Source: Patescibacteria group bacterium
Lineage (GTDB): Bacteria; Patescibacteriota; Patescibacteriia; UM-FILTER-42-10
Assembly (NCBI GenBank): GCA_041664365.1
Contig: JBAYKW010000001.1
Span: forward strand, 144,862 to 208,861
Length of the DNA stretch: 64,000 bases
Direction of reading: 5' to 3'
The notes beneath the pieces are model-generated. The model was given only the letters and a program-made list of their open reading frames with translations. It was not told where the DNA came from and did no database searches. Below, one piece after another: positions 4,614 to 45,400 of this stretch; the first letter of the stretch is position 1, and the number at the start of each line of letters is the position of its first letter. Made by a program: the position numbers and the translations under genes.

Positions 4614-5077
4614 TGAATAATAAAAAAATAACCGTAATAGTAGCAATTCTGTTTGGAATAATATTATTGTGGGTATGGCTTGCTCAAAATAATTATTTTA
4701 TGGATGAAAATGACAAAAGCAGTACTGCGGGTCAGGAGATTAATCTGGAGGACGAGCCGAAAGTTCGTTTAATATTTCCGGGAAACCAGGCAATACTGAA
4801 TCCCGGGCCGCTGGTCGCGCAATATTCATTATCCGGGGAAACAAGTAATGTACAAAGAGTTGATTTTGAATTAATAAAAAATGGCGAAACAGTTATCAAA
4901 GTTTCAGGTTCATTCAGTCCAGTGAGTAATTCGGGGAGTCAAATGATCAGGACGGTAGAGGAGGGAGAATACACGTTGAAAGCAATGCTTGTTAATCAGA
5001 CTGGAGAGTATTTTGAATCATCCGAATCAGCTTATATATCATTTTTTAAAGTTCAAAAATCGTATTTTGAAGAATAA
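4613..5077 (+). CDS. hypothetical N-terminally membrane-anchored protein
   Basis: Single N-terminal TM helix followed by a ~120-aa soluble domain. No family recognised. Confidence 0.3.
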   Translation: MNNKKITVIVAILFGIILLWVWLAQNNYFMDENDKSSTAGQEINLEDEPKVRLIFPGNQAILNPGPLVAQYSLSGETSNVQRVDFELIKNGETVIKVSGSFSPVSNSGSQMIRTVEEGEYTLKAMLVNQTGEYFESSESAYISFFKVQKSYFEE

Positions 5078-39681: not shown

Positions 39682-40209
39682 TTGAAAGTATTAGATTTCC
39701 CGTCAATTCGGCAAACATATAAATGGGACTGCGGAGCAAACGTCGTCCAATCTCTTTTGGAGTATTACGGCATTGACCGGCGGGAAGATAATACAATTAA
39801 ATCAGTCGGAACAGATCAGAGTGGCACATCGGTTATTCAAATACAGAAAGCATTTAAAAAGTTCGGGTTAAATGTATATGCCGGTGAAATGATGGTAGAT
39901 GATATAAAAAAATATATCGATAATAAAATTCCGATAATTATACCGCTTCAGGCCTGGACAAATAAGAAAAAAGTAAATTGGGAGGAAAATTGGACGGACG
40001 GGCATTACGTTGTGGTTATCGGTTATGATCAAAAGAAAATATATTTTGAGGACCCTTCATCTTTTAATCGCACATATCTTGCATATGCAGAGCTAAAAAA
40101 ACGCTGGCATGATGAAGGAGTGGACGGAAAAAAATATATCAACTGGGGGATTGCCGTTTACGGAAAAAAACCGGTTTATAACTCCAGAAAAATAAAGCAC
40201 ATGGATTAA
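39682..40209 (+). CDS. papain-like cysteine peptidase, C39-like (Peptidase_C39_2-type)
   Basis: QTYKWDCGANVV suggests a catalytic Cys in a Q...C context. GHYVVVIGYD gives a downstream His. Confidence 0.5.
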   Translation: MKVLDFPSIRQTYKWDCGANVVQSLLEYYGIDRREDNTIKSVGTDQSGTSVIQIQKAFKKFGLNVYAGEMMVDDIKKYIDNKIPIIIPLQAWTNKKKVNWEENWTDGHYVVVIGYDQKKIYFEDPSSFNRTYLAYAELKKRWHDEGVDGKKYINWGIAVYGKKPVYNSRKIKHMD

Positions 40210-40328: not shown

Positions 40329-42086
40329 ATGGAAATTAGAAATATAGCGATCATTGCTCATGTTGATCACGGAAAAACCGCTTTGACGGATGCTTTGATG
40401 CGCCAGTGCAACATGGTTGAAGAAGGCGTTAGTATGGACAGCAATGATTTGGAATTGGAAAGAGGAATCACGATTTATTCCAAGAATACGTCGGTTTTTT
40501 ACAAAGACACAAAAATTAATATCGTGGATACCCCGGGACATGCTGATTTCGGTTCCGAAGTGGAACGGGTATTGCGTTCGATTGATTGCGTATTGCTGGT
40601 TGTGGATGCTCAGGAAGGTCCGATGCCCCAGACCACATTTGTATTGAGAAAATCGCTGGAACTGGGATTGAAACCGATTGTTGTTCTGAATAAGATTGAT
40701 AAGCCGGCAGCGAGACCAGACTGGGCGCATGACGCCGTATTTGAACTGTTTATGAGTCTCGGCGCATCTGACGAACAGCTGGATTTTGCCGTGATATACA
40801 CAATCGGCAGAGACGGCTTAGCCAAATTAAAAATGGAAGATGAGGCGAAGGATCTGACTCCGCTTCTGGATTTAATTTTGCGTGAAGTACCGCCGGCGTC
40901 ATCAGAAGTATTTGAAGAAAAGGATTTGGCAGCACAAGTTTTTAATCTGGGTTATGATAATTTTCTGGGTCGTATGGCTGTTTCCAGAATATACACAGGC
41001 AAGCTGAAAGTCGGAGATAGTGTATTTATCAAGAAGATCGGCGGTGAGACCAATTCAAATAAGATTACAAAAATATATACATTTGAGGGTATAAAGAAAA
41101 AGGAAGTACCTGAGGCCTCCGCGGGAGATATTGTTATGATTGCCGGCATCCCCGATATATTTATTGGTGAAACAATTTGTGAAAAAGAAGATCGCGAGGC
41201 ACTACCAGCTATTATGGTGGACGAACCGACAATCTCTTTGGACTTCCTCGCTAATAATTCACCATTTGCGGGAAAGGACGGAAAGTATGTTACTACCAGG
41301 CAAATAAAAGAACGCCTGCAGAAAGAACTGGAGATCAATGTCGGTTTGAAGATTGATTTTTCATCAACAGATCACTATAAAGTGTTCGGCAGGGGAGAAT
41401 TGCACATTGCTATTCTGCTCGAGAACATGCGCAGAGAAGGATATGAACTGCAGGTTTCCCAACCGCAGGTCATCATCAAAGAAATTGACGGAGTAAAATG
41501 CGAACCTTTTGAGGAGATAACTGTGGATGTTCCGGTAGACTATTCCGGCATTGTGATAGAAAAGCTTTCCAAACGCAAAGCGAACATGCTGGAAATGCGT
41601 CCGGAACTGAGTCATATCCGAATAATTTTTGAAATACCAACCAGAGGTTATCTCGGTTATCGTAATGAATTTGTGATTGATACCAAAGGCGAGGGGATCA
41701 TCAGTTCGCGCATTACAGGATTTAAACCGTATGTTGAAGGAATAGAAAAACACAGCTTTGGTTCCATGATTTCCATGGCGACCGGCAAAGCGCTCGGATT
41801 TTCACTTTCCAATTTGCAGGATAGAGGAACTCTGTATATTGGACCTGGAGTAGATGTATATGAAGGAATGATAATTGGTAGCGCTGCAAAGGGATATAAT
41901 ATGGATGTAAACCCGATCAAAGGAAAACATCTGACCAATATGCGCGCTTCGGCAGCCGACGATGCTCTGAATCTGGCGCCTCCGATGGAGCTGACCCTGG
42001 AACGCGGTCTGGAAATAATCAAAGAAGATGAATATTTGGAAATAACTCCGAAAAATATCCGCCTTAGAATCAACAAACGGAAATAA
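40329..42086 (+). CDS. typA: translational GTPase TypA/BipA
   Basis: [15 protein letters not shown] (G1), DTPGHADF (G3) and NKID (G4). At 585 aa it carries the EF-G-like domains typical of BipA. Confidence 0.9.
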
Positions 42087-42097
42087 TATTATTAGTT

Positions 42098-42135
42098 AAA
42101 ATCGACTGTAAAATTGAGCAGTCGGTTTTGATTTA
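42098..42135 (+). terminator. rho-independent terminator after typA
   Basis: AAAATCGACTG...CAGTCGGTTTT hairpin plus T-run. Confidence 0.55.
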
Positions 42136-42138
42136 CAG

Positions 42139-42167
42139 TTGATTTTTAAGCTAAAATATGCTAAGAT
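42139..42167 (+). promoter_or_regulatory. sigma70-like promoter (TTGATT-17-TAAGAT) for paralog 1; duplicated at 42844-42872
   Basis: ttgatttttaagctaaaatatgctaagat. The same string with 4 substitutions lies upstream of paralog 2. Confidence 0.5.
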
Positions 42168-42196
42168 ACGGTCATCTAAGTATTAATCAAAATATT

Positions 42197-42688
42197 ATGG
42201 CAGATCCAAAAATGCCAATGCCTGGCACACCAGATGATAATATGCCTGACGAGACTTCAGTTGATGAGAATAATCAGGAGACAATGGAGGCGGAAGTAAA
42301 CGAAAAAATAAGAGTATTTTTTGCTGATATAACAGAGTTGCGAGCTACCGGTGAGTTTGCTAGGAAAGACATATATAGTCAGTATTTTGACCAAGTATTT
42401 GATTCAATAAGTAAAAGTAAAGGTGAATATGTAAATTTTGATCATGTTGCTAACCAAGTTGACAATGCTACAGATATAATAAGAAGACTTCAGTTTAAAT
42501 GCGAAGCCGAAGCGCGTCATAAAAAGGATGAAGGAAATGATGTTATTAGTGAAAAAATGAATCAATTAGTAAAAAGAGCAGAAGAGATCTTACATCAGAT
42601 AATGGTAATAGCTTATAGAAAACATTACGATCTAGATTATGATGAGGTCCAGAGGGCATATGCAGAAATTCAAAAAGACGAAGAATGA
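42197..42688 (+). CDS. hypothetical acidic protein, M-A-D-P-K-x-P N-terminal family, paralog 1
   Basis: Starts MADPKMPMPG. The C-terminal RAEEILHQIM is shared with paralog 2. The ORF-track start at 42158 lies inside the conserved promoter string and is rejected. Confidence 0.4.
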   Translation: MADPKMPMPGTPDDNMPDETSVDENNQETMEAEVNEKIRVFFADITELRATGEFARKDIYSQYFDQVFDSISKSKGEYVNFDHVANQVDNATDIIRRLQFKCEAEARHKKDEGNDVISEKMNQLVKRAEEILHQIMVIAYRKHYDLDYDEVQRAYAEIQKDEE

Positions 42689-42843
42689 CATTTTGATGAA
42701 AATTTAAACAATAGTAAGAAAGATCAAGTGAAATTGTAACTCATAGAATTGGTGATTGATAGCAATCATCATGATCAGTAATCTTAGAAAAGAATAGTCA
42801 GTAAAATAGACCACAATAGTAGGTGGTCTATTGTTTTGTAGCT

Positions 42844-42872
42844 TGATTTTTAAGCTAAAATGTGGTAAACTT
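42844..42872 (+). promoter_or_regulatory. duplicated sigma70-like promoter (TTGATT-17-TAAACT) for paralog 2
   Basis: ttgatttttaagctaaaatgtggtaaact. Near-identical to 42139-42167. Confidence 0.5.
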
Positions 42873-42899
42873 CACTTAATTAAGTATTAAAACAATATT

Positions 42900-43307
42900 A
42901 TGGCTGATCCAAAACTACCAACATATGGGCAGGATAAAGAGTCTGAAAATAATGTGGAAGTAATGAAGTCATTAGTAAGTCAAAAAACAGAATCGCTATT
43001 TTCTGATTTAATGGAATCATATTCAGAAGATGAAGATCTTAACCTGGAGGATTATCATAGTCAGAATTTTGAATATTATCTAAATAGAATAAGACAATAT
43101 AGTTATATATATCCAGATGGACAGAATCCTGATATGGAGGAAGATGAGCGTTCCTTTTTAAAAAGAATTAAAACTATATGTGAAATGGAAAAAGAATTTC
43201 AGGCAGAAAATATGAATGAAGTTCTGCGAAATAAATATCAAAATTTTACTGAAAGAGCCGAAGAAATTTTACAACTGATAGGTGCCATAATTGATGCGTC
43301 AAAATAA
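42900..43307 (+). CDS. hypothetical acidic protein, M-A-D-P-K-x-P family, paralog 2
   Basis: Starts MADPKLPTYG. C-terminal ERAEEILQLIGAI. Confidence 0.4.
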   Translation: MADPKLPTYGQDKESENNVEVMKSLVSQKTESLFSDLMESYSEDEDLNLEDYHSQNFEYYLNRIRQYSYIYPDGQNPDMEEDERSFLKRIKTICEMEKEFQAENMNEVLRNKYQNFTERAEEILQLIGAIIDASK

Positions 43308-43338
43308 ATAATTATAGTGATAAATAAAGAAAATATTT

Positions 43339-43896
43339 ATGCAAGAAAAACAAGATCCGATATACGCAGATGATGATTATGAATCTGTCGGACTGCTATT
43401 TCGGCTACGCGCGCCGGCACTGATTATTGGGCTGTTTTTGGGCATTATCATTTCTTTTGTTACTTCTAATTTTGAGAAAGTTTTGGAAAAAGACTTTCAA
43501 GTTGCCTATTTTATTCCGTTTATTGTCTATATCGCAGACGCGATTGGCTCACAGACGACGGCTATCTATTCGCGCGACTTAAAGTCCGGAACGACAAAGC
43601 TTGGGAACTATATGAAAAAAGAGTTTTTGCTCGGCCTGTTATTTGGAACAGCGTTTGGTGTTGTATCAGGATTCGTGACTTATTTATGGCTACATAATTA
43701 TTTATTATCAATTACGATAGCTATTTCGGCGGTGCTGGCTATTACTACCGCACCATTAGTAGCCTTGGTTGTAGCCACTTTGTTCCAAAGATCGCACAGA
43801 GATCCGGCGGCGGGAACCGCTCCTATCGCAACCGTACTCCAGGATATTCTAAGCGTTGTGATATACGGTACTGTGGCAAGTATCATAATATTATAA
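43339..43896 (+). CDS. MgtE-family divalent-cation transporter membrane domain only (no N-terminal MgtE_N/CBS module)
   Basis: YFIPFIVYIADAIGSQT and GTAPIATVLQDILSVVIY match the MgtE TM-domain signatures. At 185 aa it has no cytosolic sensor domains. Confidence 0.6.
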   Translation: MQEKQDPIYADDDYESVGLLFRLRAPALIIGLFLGIIISFVTSNFEKVLEKDFQVAYFIPFIVYIADAIGSQTTAIYSRDLKSGTTKLGNYMKKEFLLGLLFGTAFGVVSGFVTYLWLHNYLLSITIAISAVLAITTAPLVALVVATLFQRSHRDPAAGTAPIATVLQDILSVVIYGTVASIIIL

Positions 43897-43921
43897 ACAC
43901 ATAATAAACTAACTAAATTTT

Positions 43922-44461
43922 ATGGGAGATCCAAAACCACCGTTACCAGATGAATTTAACGATCCGCAAATTGACCGTGTGCTTGGCGATGCAGAAATGA
44001 GTGATACGAACCACCTCATTGATAGTGCTGCAAGTGCGGGCAATCCTGAGCAAGGCACCTACCGTGAACCAGCCGACCTAGAAGCACACATCGCGTTGCG
44101 AGACGAGATGTTGGATCAATACTACCGCTATAAAGATAAGTCAAAGCGACCAACTCAAAGAATTGGAGAAAATTTTGAGCCAGCGGCAGATCTGGATGGT
44201 CTTTTGCGACAGATAGAGGTTGTTACCGATGAGTGGCACCGTGATCTGGGTCCTGACGATTCACTAGATTATATGCGAAACGAAGCAGTTCGTGTACTAG
44301 AACTACCACTTATTCAATCACTCGCAATACGTATTAACGAGATACCTGAAGAAAAGCGTAGCGACGTCATTGCACTTCTAGAAGACTTTGCAACTATTGG
44401 TGATGATAGGCGCGCAAGAGAAGAAGCACAATCCATTATTGAACGTCTTCAAGGTGCATAG
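43922..44461 (+). CDS. hypothetical acidic protein, M-G-D-P-K-P-P family, divergent paralog 3 (higher GC)
   Basis: Starts MGDPKPPLPDE. C-terminal ...ARREEAQSIIERLQGA resembles the RAEEIL tail of paralogs 1 and 2. GC is ~47%. Confidence 0.35.
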   Translation: MGDPKPPLPDEFNDPQIDRVLGDAEMSDTNHLIDSAASAGNPEQGTYREPADLEAHIALRDEMLDQYYRYKDKSKRPTQRIGENFEPAADLDGLLRQIEVVTDEWHRDLGPDDSLDYMRNEAVRVLELPLIQSLAIRINEIPEEKRSDVIALLEDFATIGDDRRAREEAQSIIERLQGA

Positions 44462-44462
44462 T

Positions 44463-45107
44463 ATGGTAAAAGCTGTAATATTCGACATGGATGGTGTGAT
44501 ATCAGACACGCAGAAATTCCACTCAAAAGTTGAAAGTGAATTACTTGGTCGTTTCGGGATTGTTATAACCCCGGCGCAGATAACCGAAAGGTATGCCGGA
44601 GTAAAGACGACTGAATTTTTTACAGATTTGCTGGAAAAAAACGGCGCAAGTTTTGATCTGGATGAACTGATGAAAGAAAAATGGGTGATGATGGAAAATT
44701 TATCAAAGTCACATGTAGATGAAATTACTGGATCCGTCTCTCTGATAAAAATGCTGACTGAGATGAATATTAAACTAGCAGTGGCATCGGCGTCTGATAC
44801 AAAATATGTAATTTCAGTATTGGATAAATTAGCGATAAGGGACTATTTTGAAGCGGTTGTAACGGGACAAATGGTTTCTCGCGGAAAGCCCGATCCGGAA
44901 ATATTTCTGCTGGCTGCGGAAAAAATTGGTGTTGATCCGAAAAATTGCGTAGTTATTGAAGACGGAAAAAGCGGGATGCAGGCAGCAGCTGCTGCGCAAA
45001 TGAAAAGTATTGGCTTGGTTAACGATAAAAATGCTGATTACCCGACAAAAAACCTGGTAACTACTTTGCCTGAAATTACATTTGGATATATTAATAAATT
45101 GGTTTGA
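44463..45107 (+). CDS. HAD-family hydrolase (beta-phosphoglucomutase-like)
   Basis: VIFDMDGVISDT motif I, LAVASAS motif II, and C-terminal VVIEDGKSGMQAA motif IV. Start moved to the Met at 44463 to remove overlap with the upstream gene. Confidence 0.75.
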   Translation: MVKAVIFDMDGVISDTQKFHSKVESELLGRFGIVITPAQITERYAGVKTTEFFTDLLEKNGASFDLDELMKEKWVMMENLSKSHVDEITGSVSLIKMLTEMNIKLAVASASDTKYVISVLDKLAIRDYFEAVVTGQMVSRGKPDPEIFLLAAEKIGVDPKNCVVIEDGKSGMQAAAAAQMKSIGLVNDKNADYPTKNLVTTLPEITFGYINKLV

Positions 45108-45400
45108 ATATGAACCGTGCACCGTTAAAAAAATCAGAAATGGAAAATATCGGTGATATTTTCAAGAAAAAAACCCCCGGCAAAAAACCGCCCGCTTACC
45201 AGTGGCAGGATCTGGCATTGCGGGTGATTGAGGATTTACATATACCCAGTTTCAAAAGGAATTCCGTCTTTAAAGCCTGCCGGGATCATGATAAATATTT
45301 TATCCAGAAGTGTGTAGCAGACACGAAAGAATTGGCGGATGAAGGAGAAAAGTGGAAATACTTTTTCAAACTGGTTGGTAAAAAGCCTGAGGAAAAATAA
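45104..45400 (+). CDS. hypothetical basic protein
   Basis: 98 aa, lysine-rich. No motif recognised. Confidence 0.3.
   Translation: MNMNRAPLKKSEMENIGDIFKKKTPGKKPPAYQWQDLALRVIEDLHIPSFKRNSVFKACRDHDKYFIQKCVADTKELADEGEKWKYFFKLVGKKPEEK

What the first reader, a model, noticed from the sequence alone, without database searches (positions are those of the whole stretch)
42139..44461. Tandem family of small acidic proteins starting M-[A/G]-D-P-K-x-P, two with duplicated promoter and 5' UTR
Three consecutive genes (42197, 42900, 43922) encode 135-179-aa acidic, probably helical, proteins that all begin MADPK(M/L)P or MGDPKPP. They share a C-terminal RAEEIL(H/Q)xI-like segment but diverge in between. 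Paralogs 1 and 2 each have the same upstream string TTGATTTTTAAGCTAAAAT(A/G)TG...TAAGTATTAA...ATATTATGGC, a sigma70-like -35/-10 plus leader, so the duplication included the promoter. Each is followed by its own hairpin terminator. A gene for an MgtE-type channel domain with no cytosolic sensor sits between paralogs 2 and 3, and paralog 3 has noticeably higher GC. A strictly conserved N-terminal pentapeptide right after Met suggests a processing, secretion or modification signal. I cannot place the family.
Basis: seen in the sequence. Interest (0 to 1): 0.6.

Follow-up and report, generated by a model that had tools for sequence, protein, structure and literature searches.

The report
Orphan acidic gene pair, duplicated promoter
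Two unique small acidic genes were inserted behind the promoter of a magnesium-channel operon in one uncultured Patescibacteria lineage and then duplicated with that promoter; they share only a short N-terminal peptide with a conserved downstream gene, and nothing yet shows what any of them does.

Summary
The sequence features are real, but the "family of three" holds only in part.

- **P1 and P2 are paralogs.** P1 (42197-42688) and P2 (42900-43307) match over their full length (BLASTP 6e-14).
- **P3 shares only the N-terminus.** P3 (43922-44461) shares M-[A/G]-D-P-K-x-P, up to about 14-23 weakly similar residues. The profile comparison finds nothing more.
- **P1/P2 are orphans.** An exhaustive HMMER search of 1.84 billion representative proteins found only themselves.
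- **P1/P2 are a lineage-specific gain.** Two related genomes have BipA-terminator-promoter-MgtE-P3 with no P1 or P2. The 1159 bp holding them corresponds to 28 bp there.
- **The duplicated promoter is the ancestral MgtE operon promoter.** A roughly 703-bp cassette (BipA-type terminator, promoter, leader, gene) was duplicated in tandem.
- **Only P1 has its own terminator.** P2 now appears to head a P2-MgtE-P3-HAD operon.
- **All three proteins look soluble.** They are acidic and all-helical, with a disordered N-terminal tail. In P3 orthologs the first 15 residues are among the best conserved, despite synonymous changes.

My best guess is that the motif is a cytoplasmic docking peptide, not a secretion signal. 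Function is unknown and no known family matches. Interest is modest.

The parts
40329..42086 (+). BipA/TypA GTPase gene (context; upstream neighbour in all related genomes)
   Evidence: 585-aa ORF. The ortholog in L001 carries GTP_EFTU/BipA_C Pfam families and is 98% identical at the protein level.
42094..42133 (+). BipA intrinsic terminator hairpin (16-bp stem, T-run). It is the ancestral template of the hairpin after P1.
   Evidence: RNA fold -18.6 kcal/mol, z -5.7. It is conserved in L001.
42139..42167 (+). Promoter copy 1: -35 TTGATT (42139-42144), 17-nt spacer, TGc extended -10 TAAGAT (42162-42167). It is orthologous to the MgtE operon promoter of related genomes.
   Evidence: The pattern is unique to two sites in the window. 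It aligns with the L001 and L007 BipA-MgtE intergenic promoter. The hexamer assignment is inferred.
42168..42196 (+). Leader of P1: AT-rich, no Shine-Dalgarno sequence, unstructured
   Evidence: 73% identical to the P2 leader. No significant fold. The genome is SD-poor, with 5 of 56 genes carrying one.
42197..42688 (+). P1: 163-aa orphan acidic protein with a disordered tail (residues 1-18) and a long helical bundle
42805..42832 (+). Terminator hairpin after P1, a diverged copy of the BipA terminator with a changed but still pairing stem
   Evidence: Terminator scan. Fold -15.7 kcal/mol, z -3.8. It aligns with the BipA terminator at 57% identity.
42843..42871 (+). Promoter copy 2: -35 TTGATT (42843-42848), 17-nt spacer, TGg extended -10 TAAACT (42866-42871)
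   Evidence: It is 78% identical to copy 1 over the spacer and promoter block.
42900..43307 (+). P2: 135-aa orphan acidic protein, paralog of P1. No terminator follows it, so it is probably the first gene of a P2-MgtE-P3-HAD transcript.
   Evidence: BLASTP against P1 gives 6e-14, 29% identity over the full length. No hairpin in the 31-nt gap to MgtE. The only database match is its own C-terminal 40 aa, P0007.
43339..43896 (+). MgtE-family transmembrane domain only (185 aa), with no N or CBS domains
   Evidence: Pfam PF01769, 3.9e-20, residues 59-177. It is 96% identical to the L001 ortholog.
43922..44461 (+). P3: 179-aa conserved acidic protein with a disordered tail (residues 1-46) headed by MGDPKPPLPDEFNDP and a helical-repeat-like domain (residues 50-179)
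42191..42218 (+). 28-nt repeat around the start codon (-6 to +22), copy 1. Copies 2 and 3 are at 42894-42921 and 43916-43943.
   Evidence: the repeat finder family D1: 100%, 89% and 75% identity.
42164..43322 (+). Segment present in the window lineage and absent from relatives. It corresponds to 28 bp in L001.
   Evidence: blastn of the window against L001 has a break between 42163 and 43323, matching 7372 and 7401 in L001. L007 lacks the segment too.

Best explanation
**Origin (well supported)**
- The ancestral arrangement is BipA - terminator - promoter - short MgtE - P3. Two related genomes still have it.
- In the window's lineage a gene was placed between the MgtE promoter and MgtE. It carried the 5' end of P3, from about -8 to +25 nt (peptide M-A-D-P-K-x-P).
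- The whole cassette of about 703 bp was then duplicated in tandem. The cassette is BipA-type terminator, promoter, leader and gene.
- The result is P1 as a monocistronic unit with its own promoter and terminator.
- P2 sits behind the second promoter copy and is probably co-transcribed with MgtE, P3 and the HAD gene.
- P1 and P2 have diverged to 29% protein identity. Promoter, leader and the first 7 codons stayed 73-86% identical.

**Function (inferred, low confidence)**
- All three are soluble, acidic, all-helical cytoplasmic proteins with a disordered N-terminal tail.
- After methionine removal the tail begins with A, G or P, followed by D-P-K-x-P.
- I think this tail is a short linear docking peptide for one shared cellular partner.
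- The different helical bodies would then bring different modules to that partner, or compete for it.
- The partner is unknown. The co-transcribed sensor-less MgtE channel is one candidate.
For: **Gain in the window lineage**
- Window versus L001 is collinear at 75-80% nt identity. The exception is window 42164-43322, which matches 28 bp in L001.
- L007 also has BipA-MgtE-P3 without P1 or P2.
- MgtE protein identity is 96% (window-L001) and 86% (either against L007). That makes L007 the outgroup, so a single gain is the parsimonious reading.

**Promoter and cassette**
- The promoter is identical in layout to the MgtE promoter of L001 and L007.
- The cassette includes the terminator: the P1-P2 spacer aligns with the BipA-P1 spacer from hairpin to ATG. 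Both hairpins fold well.
- Identity by block between P1 and P2: terminator 57%, promoter 78%, leader 73%, codons 1-7 86%, rest of the CDS 51%.

**P1 and P2 are real coding genes**
- The chance of no stop codon is 5e-7 for P1 and 2e-6 for P2.
- Protein similarity appears only in frame 1: Smith-Waterman score 117, against 33 in the other frames.

**P1 and P2 are orphans**
- Searches found only the query proteins themselves.
- Viral contigs, phages and plasmids gave no match.

**Only source of similarity for the inserted DNA**
- The inserted DNA resembles only the promoter copy and the 5' end of P3.
- P1 residues 1-23 match L001 P3 at 10 of 23 positions without gaps.

**The motif is selected as a peptide**
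- P3 residues 1-15 are 87% invariant across three orthologs. This ties for the best-conserved block, although AF2 predicts disorder there.
- Codons differ synonymously between orthologs: GAT/GAC, CCG/CCA, TTA/TTG.
- The second residue varies only among G, A and P. By established knowledge of methionine aminopeptidase specificity, all three permit Met removal.
Against: - No partner is identified and there is no experimental or co-variation evidence for docking.
- The P3-MgtE adjacency is seen only in three close genomes, where synteny is conserved overall.
- Seven more distant short-MgtE loci have no P3-like neighbour.
- The distant P3 relative P0006 lacks the tail and is not next to MgtE.
- P1/P2 dN/dS is about 0.74 with saturated dS. 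This is compatible with weak constraint on the bodies.
- I could not decide whether P1/P2 descend from a whole P3 copy or captured only its 5' end.
- The conserved promoter-leader-start tract could reflect gene conversion rather than selection.
Confidence: 0.5

Rival explanations
1. All three are true full-length paralogs. P1 and P2 would be whole-gene duplicates of P3 whose bodies diverged beyond recognition, keeping only the N-terminal motif. This is a variant of the origin step in the best explanation and is not exclusive with it.
For: - With the N-terminus removed, P2 aligns collinearly with P3 orthologs P0003 and P0004. Smith-Waterman scores are 61 and 57, against shuffles of 31 +/- 5.5 (0 and 1 of 500 shuffles reach them).
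- A P3-family HMM without the tail scores P2 above all but 8 of 2000 shuffles, and P1 above all but 61 of 2000.
- Modelled P1 and P3 are both acidic and all-helical with disordered tails.
- The C-termini share a loose RA-x-EE motif.
Against: - hhalign aligns only residues 1-14, at 9.6% probability. The next hit is at 0.8% in a different register.
- The window's own P3 gives chance-level scores against both P1 and P2.
- Weak hits are inconsistent in register.
Confidence: 0.3
2. The conserved element acts at the RNA or translation-initiation level. It would be a 5' coding and leader sequence (AAT[A/T]TTATGG-N-GATCCAAAA) that boosts initiation in a genome lacking Shine-Dalgarno sites, and the peptide would be incidental.
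For: - Only 5 of 56 genes in the window have an SD-like sequence.
- The 28-nt repeat spans -6 to +22.
- The region is A-rich and unstructured.
- For P1 versus P2 the conserved tract is continuous from the promoter into codon 7.
Against: - P3 orthologs keep the peptide for 15 residues while changing codons synonymously.
- The second codon varies (GGA, GCA, CCA) but always encodes a small residue.
- None of the other 53 listed genes uses this start context.
- No Rfam family matches.
Confidence: 0.12
3. The N-terminal motif is a secretion, processing or modification signal. For example, it could be a leader recognised by the stand-alone C39-like peptidase encoded two genes upstream, or by an unknown Patescibacteria export route.
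For: - The motif sits at a strictly conserved position directly after Met.
- A C39-family peptidase gene (39682-40209) is conserved two genes upstream in the window and in L001.
- The small second residue predicts Met removal.
Against: - There is no hydrophobic core, no GG/GA/GS cleavage motif and no WxG. The tail is acidic, with net charge -2 to -6 in the first 25 residues.
- The peptidase is separated from these genes by BipA and a strong terminator.
- The peptidase is present whether or not P1/P2 exist.
- The conserved tail is 15 residues long in P3 and continues into a conserved region without any obvious cleavage boundary.
Confidence: 0.08
4. P3, and by extension P1 and P2, are trans-acting cytosolic partners of the sensor-less MgtE channel. 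They would replace the missing acidic N/CBS Mg2+-sensing domains, with the tail docking on the channel.
For: - MgtE here is the transmembrane domain only.
- P3 lies immediately downstream, 25 nt away with no terminator, in all three genomes that have it.
- P1/P2 were recruited to the same promoter.
- The proteins are acidic and helical, in very general terms like the MgtE N domain.
Against: - No Pfam MgtE_N or CBS signal at E <= 1.
- Seven other short-MgtE loci lack any such neighbour.
- P0006 is unlinked to MgtE.
- MgtE is 96% conserved while P3 is only 63% conserved, so the pair is not visibly co-evolving.
Confidence: 0.12
5. P1 and P2 are functionless or decaying by-products of a local duplication, transcribed only because they carry a strong promoter.
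For: - They are orphans.
- Their GC is low, 0.31-0.35 with GC3 0.19-0.25.
- dN/dS is about 0.74.
Against: - Both reading frames are intact despite 8-9% stop-codon frequency (P about 1e-6).
- Similarity is frame-specific, and second codon positions are the most conserved (0.61, against 0.44 and 0.49).
- P1, modelled with P2 as its only alignment partner, folds as a helical bundle at pTM 0.64.
- The terminator stem is maintained after divergence.
Confidence: 0.1

Closest known systems
Taxonomically restricted (orphan) genes expanded by tandem duplication of a promoter-gene cassette
   Same: - No homolog was found anywhere outside this population.
- GC is low and evolution is fast.
- The copies are tandem, and each keeps a duplicated regulatory region.
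- The insertion lies in a locally variable region. The gene after P3 is a HAD hydrolase here and a NUDIX hydrolase in L001.
   Different: - The duplicated regulatory region is the captured promoter of a neighbouring conserved operon, together with a copy of the preceding gene's terminator.
- The new genes carry the N-terminal peptide of another gene in the same operon.
Short linear motifs in disordered tails (docking peptides), such as the conserved terminal peptides that tether SSB or FtsZ partners. This comparison is from general knowledge.
   Same: - It is a very short segment in a region predicted to be disordered.
- That segment is as well conserved as the folded core.
- It is shared by proteins whose bodies differ.
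   Different: - It sits at the extreme N-terminus, not the C-terminus.
- The partner is unknown.
- The sequence A/G/P-DPK-x-P-x-P matches no motif I could find. My full-text search for MADPK returned 42 papers, and none of the 10 listed was relevant.
MgtE cytosolic N domain and CBS pair, the Mg2+ sensor of full-length MgtE as in Thermus thermophilus MgtE (general knowledge)
   Same: - It is an acidic, all-helical cytosolic module encoded with an MgtE transmembrane domain.
- P3 has a helical-repeat-like architecture.
   Different: - No sequence signal for MgtE_N or CBS.
- No specific structural match.
- It is a separate polypeptide.
- The linkage to MgtE is not conserved outside three close genomes.
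Small acidic four-helix-bundle proteins: generic up-down bundles, including immunity-type and DNA-mimic-type proteins (general knowledge)
   Same: - The proteins are acidic, small, fast-evolving and duplicated.
   Different: - No toxin, nuclease or defence gene is nearby.
- I did not run a PADLOC search.

Membership tests
One protein family containing P1, P2 and P3 | Significant sequence or profile similarity over the body of the proteins | tested here: not met
   - P1 and P2 are related: BLASTP 6e-14 over the full length.
- P1/P2 against P3 aligns only residues 1-9 to 1-14. hhalign gives 9.6% probability.
- There are weak hints only, at p about 0.004-0.03 and in an inconsistent register.
Sec/Tat/lipoprotein signal peptides | Positively charged n-region followed by a hydrophobic h-region of about 7-15 residues near the N-terminus | tested here: not met
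   - The maximum 15-residue Kyte-Doolittle score in the first 45 aa is 0.06 (P1), 0.13 (P2) and -0.11 (P3).
- Net charge of the first 25 residues is -2 to -6.
Double-glycine leader peptides (substrates of C39 peptidases) | Leader of 15-30 residues ending in GG, GA or GS | tested here: not met
   No GG, GA or GS occurs in the first 40 residues of any of the three proteins.
WXG100 / type VII secretion substrates | Helical hairpin of about 100 aa with a central W-x-G motif | tested here: not met
   No WxG motif. No Pfam hit.
MgtE cytosolic sensor (MgtE_N PF03448, CBS PF00571) | A Pfam match to MgtE_N or CBS | tested here: not met
   hmmscan at E <= 1 gave no such family for P1, P2 or P3.
MgtE family (the gene between P2 and P3) | MgtE transmembrane domain PF01769 above the gathering score | tested here: met
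   72.8 bits against a cut-off of 27.6, residues 59-177 of 185. No other domain was found.
M-box or other riboswitch or leader RNA controlling mgtE | An Rfam covariance-model match in the leader | tested here: not met
   The only chance-level match in 41800-44700 is WsnRNA46 at E 0.59, on the minus strand. The leaders are about 25-30 nt and unstructured.
Phage- or plasmid-borne gene cassette | Similar DNA or protein in viral or plasmid collections | tested here: not met
   - No relatives in IMG/VR.
- No blastn match in the phage or plasmid collections.
- No PHROG family at E < 0.03.

The most novel reading that the evidence does not exclude
The N-terminal peptide A/G/P-DPK-x-P-x-P is a previously undescribed docking tag. 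It would let small acidic helical proteins act in trans on the sensor-less MgtE channel or on another shared hub. The window lineage would then have been caught creating new tag-bearing regulators, by fusing the tag to new bodies and duplicating them together with the operon's own promoter.
Probability: 0.1. Interest if true: 0.6.

Novelty: new member of a known kind. Interest (0 to 1): 0.3.

Why it matters
If the reconstruction is right, this is an unusually clean example of how a streamlined Patescibacteria genome gains new genes.

- Both the ancestral and the derived states are available.
- The captured promoter, the copied terminator and the retained N-terminal peptide can all be read directly from the sequence.
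- It flags a 7-15-residue N-terminal motif that is conserved as strongly as the folded core of an uncharacterised protein. That motif is a concrete handle for pull-down experiments.

It does not reveal a new system, and the function remains unknown.

Tried and rejected
1. **Family and fold searches gave nothing specific.**
   - Pfam, NCBIfam, PHROGs and PDB sequence searches for P1-P3 gave only chance-level hits.
   - The afdb50 library was unavailable.
2. **Homolog searches.**
   - P1 and the P1+P2 profile recovered only themselves.
   - P3 has four relatives.
   - Scans of genome contigs and metagenome contigs with the P3 profile found none.
   - A DNA pattern for the P3 tail peptide also found nothing.
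3. **The P1/P2 N-terminus or leader as a copy of the MgtE 5' end.** MAFFT aligned them suggestively (P2 PTYGQD against MgtE PTYADD). Shuffle tests were not significant, so I rejected this.
4. **The P1/P2 leader as a copy of the P3 upstream region.** This was not significant beyond about 6-8 nt before the ATG.
5. **The inserted DNA as a frame-shifted remnant of neighbouring genes.** tblastx found nothing except the P3 5' end.
6. **Assembly artefact.** Rejected. P1 and P2 are only 51% identical at the nucleotide level, and two other assemblies are identical to the window.
7. **EF-P-dependent stalling at a PP motif.** Only P3 has PP, in the context KPPL. P1 and P2 have none. I did not pursue this, and the reasoning rests on general knowledge.
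8. **Minus-strand terminator-like hairpins** over codons 6-11 of P1 and P2. There is no upstream minus-strand gene and no equivalent in P3, so I treated them as chance.
Full report
**What is in the sequence**

The three ORFs exist as described.
- P1 is at 42197-42688 (163 aa, MADPKMP...).
- P2 is at 42900-43307 (135 aa, MADPKLP...).
- P3 is at 43922-44461 (179 aa, MGDPKPP...).

The degenerate start pattern ATGGSNGAYCCNAAR occurs three times in 64 kb, against 0.02 expected. None of the other 53 gene starts I listed carries it.

The proteins are acidic, with pI 4.4-4.6 and net charge -15 to -20. GC is 0.35 for P1, 0.31 for P2 and 0.46 for P3, against 0.39 for the window.

The gene between P2 and P3 is a 185-aa MgtE transmembrane domain with nothing else attached (Pfam PF01769, 3.9e-20).

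The promoter-like string TTGATTTTTAAGCTAAAAT(A/G)TG(C/G)TAA occurs only at 42139 and 42843. A 28-nt repeat spanning -6 to +22 of the start codon occurs at all three genes.

One detail in the finding is wrong. Only P1 is followed by a terminator hairpin (42805-42832, -15.7 kcal/mol, z -3.8). The other hairpin (42094-42133, -18.6 kcal/mol, z -5.7) precedes P1 and terminates the BipA gene. Nothing comparable follows P2 (31 nt to MgtE) or P3 (1 nt to the HAD gene).

The arrangement is not an assembly artefact. An ENA assembly and a Logan assembly of another run are 100% identical across it.

**Are the three one family?**

P1 and P2 are clearly homologous over their whole length: BLASTP 6e-14, 29% identity.

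P3 aligns with them only at residues 1-9 by BLASTP. By profile-profile comparison it aligns at residues 1-14, with 9.6% probability.

With the N-terminus removed there are weak hints.
- P2 against two P3 orthologs reaches Smith-Waterman z of about 5 (0 and 1 of 500 shuffles).
- A tail-less P3 HMM ranks P2 above all but 8 of 2000 shuffles, and P1 above all but 61 of 2000.

These hints are not robust. The window's own P3 scores at chance, and the aligned registers are inconsistent. The predicted architectures also differ:
- The P1 model has long helices of about 30 residues in a bundle (pTM 0.64).
- The P3 model has a 46-residue disordered tail and a short-helix, repeat-like domain (pTM 0.62).

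So this is a pair of paralogs plus a third protein that shares only the N-terminal peptide.

**Relatives and synteny**

P1, and the P1+P2 profile, found only themselves among 5.8 billion clusters. An exhaustive HMMER pass over 1.84 billion representatives gave the same result. The second hit there, P0007, is the C-terminal 40 aa of P2 itself.

P3 has four relatives.
- P0003 and P0004 (62-63% identity) begin MPDPKPPLPDDFNDP and MADPKPPLPDEFNDP.
- P0005 is truncated by a contig end.
- P0006 (40% identity) begins MPKEKK and lacks the tail.

In L001 (a 1.18-Mb contig) and in L007 the order is BipA - MgtE(185) - P3 ortholog - NUDIX - 92/94-aa ORF - Memo. This is the window's order without P1 and P2.

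blastn shows the window and L001 collinear at 75-80% identity. The break is at window 42164-43322 (1159 bp), which corresponds to 28 bp in L001.

MgtE protein identity is 96% for window-L001 and 86% for either against L007. That places L007 outside, so a single gain in the window lineage is the parsimonious reading.

**The promoter is the ancestral MgtE promoter**

In L001 the BipA stop is followed by the same terminator and then by TTGATTTTTGGGCTAAAATGTGCTAGAAT, directly upstream of MgtE. L007 has TTGATTTTAAAAGGTAATGTGGTAAAAT in the same place.

The layout conserved in all four copies is TTGATT, a 16-17 nt spacer, then a TGn extended -10 (TAAGAT, TAAACT, TAGAAT or TAAAAT). The hexamer assignment is my inference.

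The P1-P2 spacer aligns with the BipA-P1 spacer from the hairpin through to the ATG. So the duplicated unit of about 703 bp was terminator + promoter + leader + gene. This explains why P1 has a terminator and P2 does not.

Identity between the two copies by block:

| Block | Identity |
|---|---|
| Terminator (both still fold) | 57% |
| Promoter | 78% |
| Leader | 73% |
| Codons 1-7 | 86% |
| Rest of CDS | 51% |

The regulatory region and the first codons are therefore either under purifying selection or homogenised, while the bodies diverged (dN/dS about 0.74, dS about 0.95 and near saturation).

P1 and P2 are nevertheless maintained as coding genes.
- The chance of no stop codon is 5e-7 and 2e-6.
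- Similarity exists only in frame 1 (Smith-Waterman score 117, against 33).
- Second codon positions are the most conserved.

**Where did the inserted DNA come from?**

tblastx and sensitive blastn of the 1159 bp against the rest of the window and all fetched loci find only two things:
- the promoter copy;
- the 5' end of P3 and its orthologs, about -8 to +25 nt, with P1 residues 1-23 matching L001 P3 at 10 of 23 positions ungapped.

A MAFFT alignment suggested descent from the MgtE 5' end, but this is not significant in shuffle tests.

There is no match in IMG/VR, phage or plasmid collections. No Rfam family matches.

So the N-terminal module comes from P3. It arrived either by whole-gene duplication followed by extreme divergence or by capture of the 5' end. 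The origin of the bodies is undetermined.

**What the motif is likely to be**

In P3 orthologs, residues 1-15 are 87% invariant. This ties with the EAVRVLELPLIQSLA block as the most conserved part, whereas residues 31-45 are 40% invariant. AF2 nevertheless predicts residues 1-46 as disordered.

Orthologs differ synonymously within the motif (GAT/GAC, CCG/CCA, TTA/TTG). Selection therefore acts on the peptide.

The second residue is G, A or P. By the known specificity of methionine aminopeptidase all three allow Met removal, so the mature end would be A, G or P followed by DPK-x-P.

There is no hydrophobic stretch, no GG-type leader and no WxG, and the tail is acidic. A classical secretion or leader-peptide role is therefore not supported.

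A conserved short peptide in a disordered tail, shared by proteins with different bodies, is best read as a docking motif for a common partner. This is an inference and the partner is unknown.

The MgtE channel is a candidate only by adjacency. That adjacency does not extend to seven more distant short-MgtE loci, and P0006 is not linked to MgtE either.

P3 itself evolves fast: dN is 0.27, against 0.02 for BipA and MgtE at the same divergence. Its window branch is about 2.5 times longer than the L001 branch.

**Comparison with known things and verdict**

No known family or system fits. The membership tests for signal peptides, GG leaders, WXG100, MgtE_N/CBS, riboswitch leaders and mobile-element origin all failed.

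The closest description is a taxonomically restricted gene pair produced by tandem duplication of a promoter-gene cassette, carrying a putative linear motif inherited from a neighbouring conserved gene. It is a neat evolutionary vignette and a usable experimental handle, but it is not evidence for a new system.

Confidence is about 0.75 for the origin and organisation, and about 0.3 for the docking-peptide function.

Noticed in passing
window 43339-43896; L009-L014 around position 5000: The short MgtE (185 aa, transmembrane domain only) carries an invariant acidic N-terminal motif, YADDDYES, just before TM1. Six of the seven more distant short-MgtE loci fetched (L009-L014) keep it, and L015 does not. 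It might be a minimal cytosolic cation-sensing element replacing the N/CBS domains.
   Followed up: partly
window 44463-45107 vs L001 8581-9027 and L007 1445-1924: The gene directly after P3 is a HAD hydrolase in the window but a NUDIX hydrolase in L001 and L007, at the same position. Together with the P1/P2 insertion this marks a local hotspot of gene turnover in otherwise collinear genomes.
   Followed up: partly
L005 6829-8486: The distant P3 relative P0006 (161 aa, no MADPK tail) lies 8 nt downstream of a 387-aa protein with no family match. It is not near an MgtE gene.
   Followed up: partly
window, all listed gene starts: Only 5 of 56 genes have a Shine-Dalgarno-like GGAG/GAGG/AGGA sequence upstream. 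Leaders are AT-rich, so this genome seems to initiate translation largely without SD.
   Followed up: partly
window 42158-42196: ENA and Logan gene calls start P1 at ATG 42158 (176 aa), which lies inside the predicted extended -10 region. NCBI starts it at 42197 (163 aa). Conservation of the promoter and of the MADPK start favours 42197.
   Followed up: yes
window 42212-42228 and 42915-42932, minus strand: Terminator-like hairpins on the minus strand overlap codons 6-11 of P1 and P2. Their T-run is the complement of GATCCAAAA. There is no minus-strand gene upstream and no equivalent in P3, so this is probably chance.
   Followed up: partly
window 39682-40209: A stand-alone C39-family peptidase-like gene (175 aa, TTG start) sits two genes upstream and is conserved in L001. 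No link to the MADPK proteins could be shown.
   Followed up: no
window 45104-45400: A conserved 98-aa ORF of unknown function (92-96 aa in L001, L007 and L008) always lies between the variable HAD/NUDIX gene and the Memo-like gene. It has no Pfam or NCBIfam match.
   Followed up: no
window 43186-43201 and 43484-43499: A 16-nt near-identical repeat (TGGAAAAAGA[A/C]TTTCA) occurs in P2 and in MgtE. My rough estimate is that one such match is expected by chance in this AT-rich stretch.
   Followed up: partly
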